DNA of 64,000 bases, from contig OX597819.1 of NCBI GenBank assembly GCA_951406725.2, positions 11,284,001 through 11,348,000 of the forward strand, written 5' to 3'. Position numbers: made by a program. Positions 28,647 through 29,584 of this stretch are shown here, in pieces. The DNA comes from Octopus vulgaris (taxonomy: Eukaryota). Position 1 is the first letter of the stretch. Each line of letters opens with the position of its first letter.

Positions 28647-28732
<86 letters not shown>

Positions 28733-28940
28733 GAATGGAGTTGAACGACGAATTAACAAAATTCCTTTATTTAGTTTTTTTTGCATCTTGATGTTGACAT
28801 AAATTCCTTGCTTTTCCTGATGAGAAAGCGGCATAATGTACTCCTTATTCCTTCGCAATTAAGAATATACAGCCTTCGAAACATATGTAGAAAATAAAGG
28901 AATTTTGTTAATTTCTTCAACTCGTCGTTCAATATATATT

Positions 28941-28988
<48 letters not shown>

Positions 28989-29187
28989 GAATGGAGTTGA
29001 ACGACGAATTAACAAAATTCCTTTATTTAGTTTTTTTTGCATCTTGATGTTGACATAAATTCCTTGCTTTTCCTGATGAGAAAGCGGCATAATGTACTCC
29101 TTATTCCTTCGCAATTAAGAATATACAGCCTTCGAAACATATGTAGAAAATAAAGGAATTTTGTTAATTCGTCGTTCAACTCCATTC

Positions 29188-29241
<54 letters not shown>

Positions 29242-29584
29242 GAATGGAGTTGAACGACGAATTAACAAAATTCCTTTATTTAGTTTTTTTTGCATCTTGA
29301 TGTTGACATAAATTCCTTGCTTTTCCTGATGAGAAAGCGGCATAATGTACTCCTTATTCCTTCGCAATTAAGAATATACAGCCTTCGAAACATATGTAGA
29401 AAATAAAGGAATTTTGTTAATTCGTCGTTCAACTCCATTCTTTCCTATATTTATATTTTAAAAAAAAACATACAAATTTCCACACGAAAGCACGTAACTT
29501 CAAACGTGTCTTCTCTGATGTGAATTTGCTACCCAGGTATCGGTTAACCGAATTATCCATAACAAGATAATTCATTCAACTACT

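What the first reader, a model, noticed from the sequence alone, without database searches (positions are those of the whole stretch)
28727..29444. Triplicated fold-back HHR unit with (TA)n spacers
Three virtually identical ~210-bp units at 256 and 253 bp spacing. Each has ~45-bp inverted ends (rearranged at the end of unit 1). The left arm mirrors the sequence starting 2 nt after the predicted GUA cleavage site, tying the inversion to the ribozyme cut. Tandem HHRs with a catatg palindrome could dimerise and release ~255-nt structured monomers, as in ribozyme satellites and non-LTR retrozymes.
Basis: partly seen in the sequence, partly recalled or inferred. Interest (0 to 1): 0.8.

Follow-up and report, generated by a model that had tools for sequence, protein, structure and literature searches.

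The report
Tandem hammerhead-ribozyme retroelement in TA microsatellite
Three tandem copies of a 207-bp fold-back unit, each carrying a hammerhead self-cleaving ribozyme motif of the kind tied to Penelope-like retrotransposons, sit in a TA microsatellite; this looks like a new example of a known class of small ribozyme-bearing retroelements.

Summary
Three near-identical 207-bp units start at 28729, 28985 and 29238 (spacing 256 and 253 bp). Each has perfect 44-bp inverted arms and (TA)n spacers; the right arm of unit 1 is rearranged.

Each unit carries a complete type-I hammerhead (HHR) motif:
- core CUGAUGA;
- a 54-nt helix II domain;
- GAA;
- an 8-nt palindromic helix III (ACAUAUGU);
- the cut site GUA|G;
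- a 5+9-bp helix I.

My descriptor scan finds 7-9 such motifs in the window, against 0.003-0.025 per shuffled window. The other families include a second tandem/inverted element bounded by (TA)n and the 3' UTR of a truncated Penelope-like element (PLE) bounded by (TA)n.

Rfam gives sub-threshold hammerhead hits for two of those families but none for this array. Its helix II base is weak, and a competing hairpin covers the core.

Best reading: a short non-autonomous, PLE-type, retrozyme-like element whose read-through transcript could self-cleave as a dimer into 253-256-nt monomers. Cleavage, RNA circles and genome-wide copy number are untested.

The link between the inversion and the cut site is not general: it is absent in the two other inverted elements. 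This is a new member of a known kind, of moderate interest.

The parts
28693..28728 (.). Upstream (TA)18 run, preceded by (CA)n. It is either the target microsatellite or the element's own (UA)n.
28729..28943 (+). Unit 1: left arm 28729-28772, HHR core 28817-28823, cut after A28889. The right arm from 28892 is rearranged (small deletions plus a 14-nt insertion).
28944..28984 (.). (TA)n spacer 1
28985..29191 (+). Unit 2, complete, 207 bp, GC 32%
28985..29028 (+). Left arm of unit 2 (44 nt), a perfect reverse complement of 29148-29191. Its inner 21 nt are a near-copy of the helix I 5' strand region.
29057..29072 (+). Helix I 5' strand (positions 2.16-2.1): 5 bp, a 2x2 internal loop, then 9 bp. 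A further 6 bp is possible using 29051-29056.
29073..29079 (+). Conserved core CUGAUGA (C3-A9)
29080..29133 (+). Helix II domain, 54 nt. It runs G10.1-C11.1, A-U, A-U, an A.C mismatch, G-C, C-G, then an imperfect rod. It is weak (-5 kcal/mol on its own).
29134..29136 (+). Conserved GAA (G12 A13 A14)
29137..29144 (+). Helix III, ACAUAUGU. The 8-nt palindrome gives only 2 bp plus a tetraloop within one copy, but 8 bp between two copies.
29145..29146 (+). Predicted cleavage between A17 (29145) and G1.1 (29146). The equivalent sites are 28889/28890 and 29398/29399, giving monomers of 256 and 253 nt.
   Evidence: motif positions; cleavage itself is inferred
29148..29191 (+). Right arm of unit 2. 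Its first 14 nt are also the helix I 3' strand.
29148..29281 (.). Perfect 134-bp palindrome: right arm of unit 2, (TA)23, left arm of unit 3.
   Evidence: I3: 67-nt arms, 100% complementary, 0 nt between them
29192..29237 (.). (TA)23 spacer 2
29238..29444 (+). Unit 3, complete and identical to unit 2. HHR core 29326-29332, cut after A29398, right arm 29401-29444. It is followed by a degenerate CTATATTTATATTTT and A9, not by a clean (TA)n.

Best explanation
The array is a trimer of a short, non-coding, hammerhead-bearing retroelement of the Penelope-like-element (PLE) / non-LTR retrozyme kind, lying in a (TA)n microsatellite.

Shown by the sequence:
- Each unit holds a full type-I HHR motif.
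- Helix III is an 8-nt palindrome that can only become a real helix between two copies.
- The unit ends are 44-bp inverted arms, so that right arm, (TA)23 and next left arm form a perfect 134-nt hairpin.

Inferred mechanism:
1. A read-through transcript folds co-transcriptionally. The left arm of unit n is taken up by the right arm of unit n-1.
2. This leaves the helix I 5' strand free to pair with the newly made start of the right arm.
3. Two neighbouring HHRs pair through ACAUAUGU and cut after GUA, releasing 253-256-nt monomers.
4. When the next left arm is made, it displaces helix I and locks the monomer as a long hairpin.
5. Monomers may be ligated into circles and copied back into DNA in trans by a PLE reverse transcriptase/GIY-YIG nuclease that prefers (TA)n.

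The inverted arm and tandem layout are the usual scars of PLE-type integration. The three copies arose either from a multimeric RNA template or by later unequal exchange in the TA runs.
For: The motif is complete.

Descriptor scans:
- Strict descriptor: 7 hits in the window, 3 of them this array. The null is 0.0033 hits per dinucleotide-shuffled window, with 1 of 300 shuffles having any hit.
- Palindromic-helix-III descriptor with both known cores: 9 hits. The null is 0.025, with 5 of 200 shuffles having any hit.

Independent families with the same architecture:
- B (5858, 6133 on +; 5744 on -) is a 275-bp tandem plus an inverted copy, bounded by (TA)n. Rfam Hammerhead_1 scores 22.7 bits, E = 0.0012, in exactly my register, with a 52-nt helix II insertion.
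- C (-16408) matches Hammerhead_HH9 at 22 bits, E = 0.0013.
- D/D' (28212 on +, 27974 on -) are inverted copies about 81% identical. Their core and cut site differ only at N7 and H17, the freely variable positions; position 10.1 also differs, turning a U-A pair into C.A.
- E (48978) has the published U3-A8 core variant. It lies in the 3' UTR of an ORF whose relatives are about 750-aa RT + GIY-YIG proteins: 116 hits at E <= 0.001 among 3086 candidates, best 59% identity. That element is bounded exactly by (TA)n.

Folding:
- In the dimer cofold, 8 of 8 helix III bases pair between copies (-45.2 against 2 x -17.2 kcal/mol).
- In the multimer prefix fold, the inter-unit hairpin forms and the outer 9 bp of helix I appear in the MFE.

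Literature:
- Metazoan HHRs have a 1-2-bp helix III with a palindromic loop and act as dimers; shrimps are named (PMC4209133, parts 1-2 read).
- Non-LTR retrozymes are low-GC tandem repeats of 150-450 bp, from dimers and trimers upward (PMC7229834, passages).
- PLE insertions are partial tandems, often with an inverted 5'-truncated copy, and prefer (TA)n (PMC8557442, passages).
- Retrozymes derive from PLE pLTRs (preprint 10.64898/2026.07.22.740005).
Against: - Rfam finds no hammerhead family here: 0 matches at gathering score in the 64 kb, none among 62 matches at E <= 10 in 871 nt, and 0 matches in the 121-nt HHR domain.
- The base of helix II is only G-C, A-U, A-U before an A.C mismatch.
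- The unconstrained MFE pairs GCUUUU with GAAAGC across the core. The HHR-constrained fold is 3.7 kcal/mol worse, and this hairpin persists in the multimer and dimer folds.
- In a lone unit, its own left arm takes the helix I 3' strand completely.
- There is no sequence similarity to the PLE 3' UTR or to any other HHR element in the window, and no PLE ORF is adjacent.
- There are no other copies in 64 kb. The three copies are identical across the HHR, so the array itself offers no covariation.
- The pair table across families is circular, because 8 of its 9 rows were selected for pairing.
- PLE-type minimal HHRs cleave poorly in vitro (PMC4209133).
- The array ends exactly at the arm ends, not at the cut sites.
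Confidence: 0.55

Rival explanations
1. A single PLE-type insertion fragment (a 44-bp inverted copy plus a 165-bp direct copy carrying an HHR relic) landed in a (TA)n run. It was later triplicated purely at the DNA level, by unequal exchange or replication slippage between the flanking TA runs. The HHR is descended from a real ribozyme but does nothing here.
For: - Units 2 and 3 are 100% identical and all three share the same arm junction, which points to one founding event.
- The units are separated by TA runs of unequal length: 36, 41 and 46 nt.
- Any segment flanked by direct TA repeats is prone to duplication (general knowledge).
- The array boundaries coincide with the arm ends.
- The weak helix II and the core-covering hairpin fit a relic.
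- The preprint 10.64898/2026.07.22.740005 (passage) cites expansion of such arrays by unequal crossover.
Against: - The right flank after unit 3 is not a clean (TA)n, so the exchange partner is missing or has decayed.
- Every core base is intact in all 3 copies.
- Family B shows that tandem HHR units without TA spacers also occur in this genome.
Confidence: 0.25
2. A class II miniature inverted-repeat element (MITE, Tc1/mariner or Stowaway-like, with a TA target) was tandemly amplified. The hammerhead-like motif is chance or a captured fragment.
For: - The terminal inverted repeats are perfect and 44 bp long.
- The element is 207 bp, 32% GC, non-coding, and flanked by TA on both sides.
- The array ends exactly at the repeat ends.
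- Rfam does not call a hammerhead.
Against: - A chance motif of this quality is expected 0.003 times per window.
- The same motif architecture marks 5 other element families here, one inside a PLE.
- The inverted-plus-tandem layout and (TA)n targeting are published PLE traits (PMC8557442 passages).
- There is no second copy and no transposase in the window.
- A TA duplication cannot be read inside a TA run.
Confidence: 0.12
3. The copy number is an assembly artefact: one or two real units were expanded across TA repeats and long palindromes.
For: - Units 2 and 3 and their surroundings are identical.
- TA runs and a 134-bp perfect palindrome are hard to assemble.
- PMC8557442 (passage) notes that such tandem/inverted PLE structures cause assembly problems.
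Against: - Unit 1 differs from units 2 and 3 in its right arm, so at least two distinct copies exist.
- The three TA runs differ in length.
- There are no N gaps in the window.
Confidence: 0.1

Closest known systems
Metazoan non-LTR retrozymes (Cervera & de la Pena 2020, PMC7229834)
   Same: Short tandem repeats within the 150-450 bp range, low GC, a type-I HHR in each unit, dimers and trimers upward, and highly self-paired monomers of 170-400 nt. The operational test of the 2026 preprint is met at the motif level: a TRF array with complete HHR motifs in at least 2 consecutive units and an MFE below -5 kcal/mol.
   Different: The helix II domain is 54 nt instead of about 4 bp plus a loop, and no recognisable loop 1-loop 2 contacts are evident. 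A (TA)n run and 44-bp perfect inverted arms sit inside each period. Expression, circles and genome-wide copies are not shown.
Minimal, dimer-acting HHRs of Penelope-like elements (Cervera & de la Pena 2014, PMC4209133; Lunse et al. 2017 seen only as a citation, not held)
   Same: Type-I topology, G10.1-C11.1, a short palindromic helix III that needs a second copy, occurrence in tandem or on opposite strands, and presence in a genome with RT + GIY-YIG PLEs. Insertion is in (TA)n with inverted and tandem copies (PMC8557442).
   Different: The motif is not inside a PLE or a recognisable pLTR. It shares no sequence similarity with the PLE 3' UTR in the window. There is no unpaired base between A9 and 10.1. 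Helix I is long (5+9 bp) rather than 4-5 bp.
Amphibian satellite 2 / axolotl HHR repeats (described in PMC7229834)
   Same: Tandem repeats of about 330 bp whose HHR has a very weak helix III with a palindromic loop and which cleave efficiently only as dimers.
   Different: Different phylum and sequence. Those repeats keep the canonical loop 1-loop 2 interactions and reach copy numbers of about 10^5. Here only 3 copies are seen.
MITEs / fold-back elements that form tandem arrays
   Same: Perfect terminal inverted repeats, about 200 bp, AT-rich, flanked by TA, in tandem.
   Different: This element carries a complete HHR motif. No transposase-related partner or dispersed copies could be examined. 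The resemblance is recalled from general knowledge and comes from no call.

Membership tests
Hammerhead ribozyme, type I | Conserved core C3 U4 G5 A6 N7 G8 A9 ... G12 A13 A14 ... A15.1-U16.1, with H17 not G | tested here: met
   CUGAUGA / GAA / A...U / A17 is present in all 3 units.
Hammerhead ribozyme, type I | Helices I, II and III around the core, with helix I open | tested here: met
   Helix I is 5 bp + 2x2 loop + 9 bp. Helix II is 3 bp, an A.C mismatch, 2 bp, then a rod. Helix III is 2 bp plus a tetraloop, or 8 bp in a dimer. Helix II is weak, and the active fold is 3.7 kcal/mol above the MFE.
Hammerhead ribozyme, type I | Match to the Rfam hammerhead covariance models (clan CL00010) | tested here: not met
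   0 hits at gathering score, and none at E <= 10 in 871 nt or in 121 nt. Of the five HHR families scanned in short stretches (A, B, C, D, F1), two got sub-threshold hits: B (22.7 bits against a cutoff of 34) and C (22 bits against 52). D and F1 got none.
Hammerhead ribozyme, type I | Site-specific self-cleavage | not testable with these tools
   Needs in vitro transcription of 1-3 units.
Hammerhead ribozyme, type I | Loop 1-loop 2 tertiary contacts of canonical metazoan HHRs | not testable with these tools
   There is no canonical 4-bp helix II with a capping loop. The internal loop of helix I and the bulges of helix II could touch, but nothing here tests it.
Non-LTR retrozyme | Tandem repeats of about 150-450 bp with low GC | tested here: met
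   Period 256/253 bp, 3 copies. The cut-to-cut monomer has 26.5% GC.
Non-LTR retrozyme | A complete type-I HHR in at least two consecutive units | tested here: met
   3 of 3 units pass the strict descriptor. This is at the motif level only.
Non-LTR retrozyme | Expressed as linear and circular monomer RNAs | not testable with these tools
   No transcript data.
Non-LTR retrozyme | A family with many genomic copies | not testable with these tools
   No copy lies outside the array in the 64 kb. No eukaryotic genome collection was on hand. Exact scans of the bacterial/archaeal collection gave 0 hits.
PLE-associated minimal HHR / pLTR | Palindromic 15.2-16.2 and loop 3, plus G10.1-C11.1 | tested here: met
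   ACAUAUGU and G-C.
PLE-associated minimal HHR / pLTR | An unpaired nucleotide between A9 and 10.1 | tested here: not met
   G10.1 follows A9 directly. Only family F of the window needs the bulge.
PLE-associated minimal HHR / pLTR | Lies in the flanking repeat of an RT + GIY-YIG element, or is similar to one | tested here: not met
   No ORF is adjacent. The nearest PLE ORFs are at 41785-42531 (-) and 47588-48742 (+). blastn shows no similarity.
PLE-associated minimal HHR / pLTR | Tandem/inverted insertion structure in a (TA)n microsatellite | tested here: met
   Inverted arms, tandem units and TA runs are all present. 6 of the 7 HHR loci of the window lie in inter-TA segments of at most 1576 bp; the miss is F2 at 34634. 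My binomial estimate of the chance is about 0.01, using the 0.368 fraction.
MITE (class II) | Terminal inverted repeats, small size, no ORF | tested here: met
   44-bp perfect arms, 207 bp.
MITE (class II) | Target-site duplication of fixed length | tested here: inconclusive
   The ends are buried in (TA)n, so a TA duplication cannot be told apart from the run.
MITE (class II) | Arms shared with an autonomous DNA transposon; dispersed solo copies | not testable with these tools
   None in the window. The genome was not available.

The most novel reading that the evidence does not exclude
The fold-back is part of the ribozyme's working cycle and a fossil of it.

- The left arm would be a run-off or snap-back copy made on an RNA already cut by the HHR in vivo. 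Its inner end lies 2 nt from the cut. By my estimate, about 5 of 119 internal positions would be that close by chance.
- The resulting inter-unit (UA)n-tipped 134-nt perfect hairpin would act as a co-transcriptional switch. It first frees helix I for cleavage and then locks the released monomer.
- The released monomer would also be an ideal Dicer substrate.

Such an element would spread both a (TA)n tract and a MITE-like fold-back by an RNA route. That would link retrozymes to microsatellite expansion and to MITE-like structures in SSR-rich invertebrate genomes.
Probability: 0.12. Interest if true: 0.65.

Novelty: new member of a known kind. Interest (0 to 1): 0.38.

Why it matters
If the motif cleaves, this locus adds a crustacean-like, SSR-rich genome to the hosts of small ribozyme-bearing retroelements. 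The host species itself was not identified.

It would also show a variant in which a microsatellite and a perfect palindrome lie inside the ribozyme period. That bears on two open questions:
- how PLE-type integration produces inverted and tandem copies in (TA)n;
- whether such elements carry microsatellites around. For penaeid shrimp, PMC7878876 (passages) reports transposable elements as carriers of SSR expansion and Penelope elements rich in long (AT)n.

The window also shows that Rfam's hammerhead models miss most of this class: 0 of 6 motif families reach the gathering score. Annotation pipelines will therefore overlook them.

Tried and rejected
- **Rfam scans.** The gathering-score scan of the window gave nothing. 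At E <= 10 the array gives only microRNA-model look-alikes caused by the TA-centred palindrome (62 matches, e.g. mir-5014 at 64 bits against a cutoff of 101). I reject these as hairpin artefacts.
- **Other copies.** I found none in the window. The bacterial/archaeal genome collection gave 0 hits to a 26-mer and a 33-mer, as expected for a eukaryotic element.
- **Pfam.** On the PLE-like ORFs, GIY-YIG scored 19.5 bits, below the 22.6 cutoff, for 41785-42531 (-). The 47588 ORF gave only a spurious SIR2 match. The homology search settled that ORF's identity.
- **Similarity between elements.** The array, its 3' flank (29445-29587), the PLE 3' UTR and the other HHR elements share no similarity.
- **The inversion/cut-site idea, tested on elements B and D.** Their inversion breakpoints are about 100 nt upstream of the cut or core, so the tie is not general.
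- **The pair table across HHR families.** It is not independent evidence, because 8 of its 9 rows were selected for pairing. The descriptor version that allows a bulge (10 hits) was not run against shuffles.
- **Literature.** Searches for 'hammerhead' + 'miniature inverted-repeat' (7 papers) and 'retrozyme' + 'microsatellite' (6 papers) listed no paper describing an HHR unit with inverted arms and (TA)n spacers. I saw listings only, plus passages of PMC8490949, where MITE appears only in a reference.
- **Not seen.** Lunse et al. 2017 is not held. The supplementary figures with shrimp and other invertebrate HHRs, which could show whether this exact family is already described, were therefore not seen.

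Full report
**Observation**

The region holds three head-to-tail units.
- Tandem Repeats Finder gives a 253-bp period, 3.0 copies and 96% matches at 28693-29456.
- The repeat finder gives spacings of 256 and 253.
- In the alignment of the three units every column is invariant up to about column 185 of 212. Only the right end of unit 1 departs.

By exact string tests the unit is 207 bp: 28729-, 28985-29191 and 29238-29444. It has a 44-nt left arm. In units 2 and 3 the 44-nt right arm is its perfect reverse complement. In unit 1 the right arm carries small deletions and a 14-nt insertion made of a duplicated arm piece plus TA.

The units are separated by TA runs of 41 and 46 nt and preceded by (CA)n(TA)18. 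After unit 3 comes a degenerate CTATATTTATATTTT and then A9, not a clean TA run. The right arm of one unit, the (TA)23 spacer and the left arm of the next unit form a perfect 134-bp palindrome (I3). blastn finds no other copy in the 64 kb.

**The ribozyme motif**

Read on the + strand, unit 2 has the following parts:

| Part | Coordinates | Content |
|---|---|---|
| Helix I 5' strand | 29057-29072 | pairs with 29146-29161 |
| Core | 29073-29079 | CUGAUGA |
| Helix II domain | 29080-29133 | 54 nt |
| GAA | 29134-29136 | conserved |
| Helix III | 29137-29144 | ACAUAUGU |
| Cut site | 29145 / 29146 | A17, then G1.1 |
| Helix I 3' strand | 29146-29161 | overlaps the right arm |

- This is type-I topology: helix I is open and helix III is closed.
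- Helix I has 5 bp, a 2x2 internal loop and 9 bp.
- Helix II starts G-C, A-U, A-U, then an A.C mismatch, G-C, C-G, and continues as an imperfect rod.
- Helix III is only 2 bp with a 4-nt loop inside one molecule. As a palindrome it gives 8 bp between two molecules.
- In a cofold of two HHR domains, all 8 bases pair across the copies (-45.2 kcal/mol against 2 x -17.2).

**Is the motif more than chance?**

I wrote a descriptor and scanned both strands of the window and of dinucleotide-preserving shuffles.

| Descriptor | Hits in window | Hits per shuffled window | Shuffles with any hit |
|---|---|---|---|
| Strict: CUGANGA, helix II >= 3 bp from 10.1-11.1, GAAA, helix III, H17 not G, helix I >= 5 bp | 7 | 0.0033 | 1 of 300 |
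| Fully palindromic helix III, also allowing the published U3-A8 core | 9 | 0.025 | 5 of 200 |
| Allowing a one-base bulge after A9 | 10 | not run | not run |

The hits fall into six sequence families, five besides the array itself (family A).
- **B** (5858 and 6133 on +, 5744 on -). Two tandem 275-bp units plus a 204-nt inverted copy (98% complementary), bounded by (TA)n on both sides. Helix II is a firm 7 bp with a 58-nt domain.
- **C** (-16408). ACCGGU, GUC.
- **D** (+28212). It has an inverted partner D' at -27974. The two copies are about 81% alike, and their core and cut site differ only at N7 and H17, the two positions free to vary. Position 10.1 also differs, turning a U-A pair into C.A.
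- **E** (+48978). The core is UUGAAAA.
- **F** (-18239 and +34634). These are the two hits that need the bulge.

E lies in the 3' UTR of ORF 47588-48742. The relatives of that ORF are about 750-aa proteins with precomputed RT and GIY-YIG domains: 116 hits at E <= 0.001 among 3086 candidates, best 59% identity over 97% of the query. This is a 5'-truncated Penelope-like element, bounded exactly by TA runs at 47471-47582 and 49159-49215.

**Independent check with Rfam, and what speaks against the array**

At gathering scores the window has no match at all. In short stretches at E <= 10 the results were:

| Family | Result |
|---|---|
| B | Hammerhead_1, 22.7 bits (cutoff 34), E = 0.0012, in my register, with a 52-nt insertion in helix II |
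| C | Hammerhead_HH9, 22 bits (cutoff 52), E = 0.0013 |
| D | no hammerhead match |
| F1 | no hammerhead match |
| A (the array) | none in 871 nt, none in 121 nt |

So 2 of 5 families tested this way get sub-threshold support, and the array does not.

The array's motif is also the weakest energetically.
- For B, D and E, helices I and II appear in the unconstrained MFE with their base pairs next to the core; C lacks only the 2.1-1.1 pair.
- For A only the outer 9 bp of helix I appear. A hairpin GCUUUU/GAAAGC closes over the core, and the HHR-constrained fold is 3.7 kcal/mol worse. The figures for B, C, D and E are 0.9, 4.2, 4.3 and 1.7.

I therefore rate the motif as very probably descended from a real hammerhead. 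Its present activity is about an even bet.

**Arms, spacers and the link to the cut**

That is true. But in B and D, the two other inverted HHR elements, the inversion breakpoints lie about 100 nt upstream of the cut or core, and the inverted copies include the whole ribozyme. The tie is therefore not a rule.

A simpler account comes from what is published for Penelope-like elements.
- Insertions are partial tandems, often with an inverted 5'-truncated copy at the 5' end that creates flanking inverted repeats. They may have 30-40-bp tails, and have a bias for microsatellites, (TA)n in Naiads and probably Neptune (PMC8557442, passages).
- The purified enzyme cuts and extends both DNA strands and starts reverse transcription internally (PMC11167929, passages).

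In the window, 6 of the 7 HHR loci lie in inter-TA segments of at most 1576 bp. The miss is F2. A random base has a 0.368 chance of doing so, which gives about 0.01 by my binomial arithmetic.

Each unit can thus be read as a 44-nt inverted copy of the element's 3' end joined to a 165-nt direct copy. All three units share the same junction. They therefore go back to one founding event or to a master RNA that already contained the arm, not to three separate insertions.

**How it may work (inferred)**

The inner 21 nt of the left arm are a near-copy of the helix I 5' strand region (19 of 21 matches with one gap). Both can pair with the start of the right arm.
- In a lone unit the perfect left arm wins, and no helix I forms.
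- In a multimeric transcript the left arm of unit n is taken by the right arm of unit n-1 through the UA-tipped hairpin. The outer helix I then forms in the MFE.

This suggests a switch:
1. The ribozyme can fold while the transcript is being made.
2. Neighbouring copies pair through ACAUAUGU and cut.
3. The next left arm then displaces helix I and locks the 253-256-nt monomer as a long hairpin.

Ligation to circles and reverse transcription by a PLE enzyme in trans would follow the retrozyme model (PMC7229834 and PMC4209133, discussion). None of these steps is shown here.

**Comparison and novelty**

The array meets the structural definition of a non-LTR retrozyme.
- It is a tandem repeat within 150-450 bp with low GC (26.5% cut to cut).
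- It carries a type-I HHR in consecutive units.
- Trimers are common. In the 2026 preprint, 75% of families have at most seven units, and its operational test is a TRF array with HHR motifs in at least 2 consecutive units.

It differs in three ways: the long helix II domain, the absence of recognisable loop-loop contacts, and a microsatellite and perfect palindrome inside the period. It is not inside a PLE and shares no sequence with the PLE in the window, so membership of a pLTR family is not met.

The MITE reading fits the arms and the TA flanks, but it must treat a motif with a 0.003 chance per window as coincidence. The assembly-artefact reading can only reduce the copy number, because unit 1 is distinct.

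I file the array as a new member of a known kind. Interest is moderate.

**Limits**

- The host species was not identified. By my count perfect SSRs cover 8.7% of the window, including 59 TA runs. That resembles what PMC7878876 (passages) reports for penaeid shrimp, but this is a resemblance only.
- The supplementary figures of PMC4209133 and PMC7229834 could not be read. They may already list this family.

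Noticed in passing
window 5507-6249: Element B is a second HHR-bearing repeat, bounded by (TA)n at 5427-5506 and 6250-6313. It has a 204-nt inverted copy (5571-5774), a 53-nt loop, then 1.8 direct units of 275 bp (5828-6249). HHR cores lie at 5744 (-), 5858 (+) and 6133 (+). Helix III is ACAAUUGU, the cut is GUA, and the helix II domain is 58 nt. Rfam Hammerhead_1 scores 22.7 bits, E = 0.0012. By the published operational test it is a retrozyme dimer.
   Followed up: yes
window 16330-16422 (-): HHR candidate C: CUGAUGA, a 42-nt helix II domain, ACCGGU, GUC. Rfam Hammerhead_HH9 scores 22 bits, E = 0.0013, below the cutoff of 52. It lies in a 408-bp segment between TA runs.
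   Followed up: partly
window 27835-28332: A head-to-head inverted pair about 81% alike, each copy with an HHR motif: D at +28212 (CUGACGA ... ACAGCUGU, GUU) and D' at -27974 (CUGAUGA ... GUA, with a C.A at 10.1-11.1). It lies 400 bp upstream of the array, separated from it by SSRs.
   Followed up: partly
window 47583-49158: A 5'-truncated Penelope-like element: ORF 47588-48742 is the C-terminal half of an RT + GIY-YIG protein. It is bounded exactly by (TA)n on both sides. A minimal HHR of the U3-A8 core variant (UUGAAAA ... GAAACCGGUA) lies at 48978-49004 in its 3' UTR.
   Followed up: yes
window 18211-18245 (-) and 34634-34670 (+): Two copies of another minimal HHR family (F): a one-base bulge after A9, a 6-bp helix II, ACGU, GUU. 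The flanking ORF translations are similar at both loci, so this is a repeated element.
   Followed up: no
window 41785-42531 (-): A second PLE-like ORF fragment with a GIY-YIG motif (Pfam 19.5 bits, below the 22.6 cutoff), next to 118-bp tandem repeats at 41552-41800 and a purine-rich repeat at 41854-42078.
   Followed up: no
window 27458-27700 and nine other places (e.g. 50981-51221, 44401-44633, 18308-18524, 47047-47266, 43558-43772): A dispersed repeat of about 220-240 bp with 10 copies in the window, 73-93% alike. The copy at 27458 starts directly at a TA run. It is probably a SINE or MITE family.
   Followed up: no
window 60536-61017 and 6340-6420: A repeat of about 170-183 bp in 2.7 tandem copies at 60536-61017. 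The same sequence starts right after the (TA)n that bounds element B.
   Followed up: no
whole window: Extreme microsatellite load: 59 TA runs of at least 16 bp, perfect SSRs covering 8.7% of the bases, and 100 TRF rows at score >= 80. Rfam at E <= 10 turns TA-centred palindromes into many false microRNA matches.
   Followed up: partly
window 53796-54170 (-): An ORF fragment with a sub-threshold zf-RVT match (20.1 bits against a cutoff of 27.5). It is probably a remnant of another retrotransposon.
   Followed up: no
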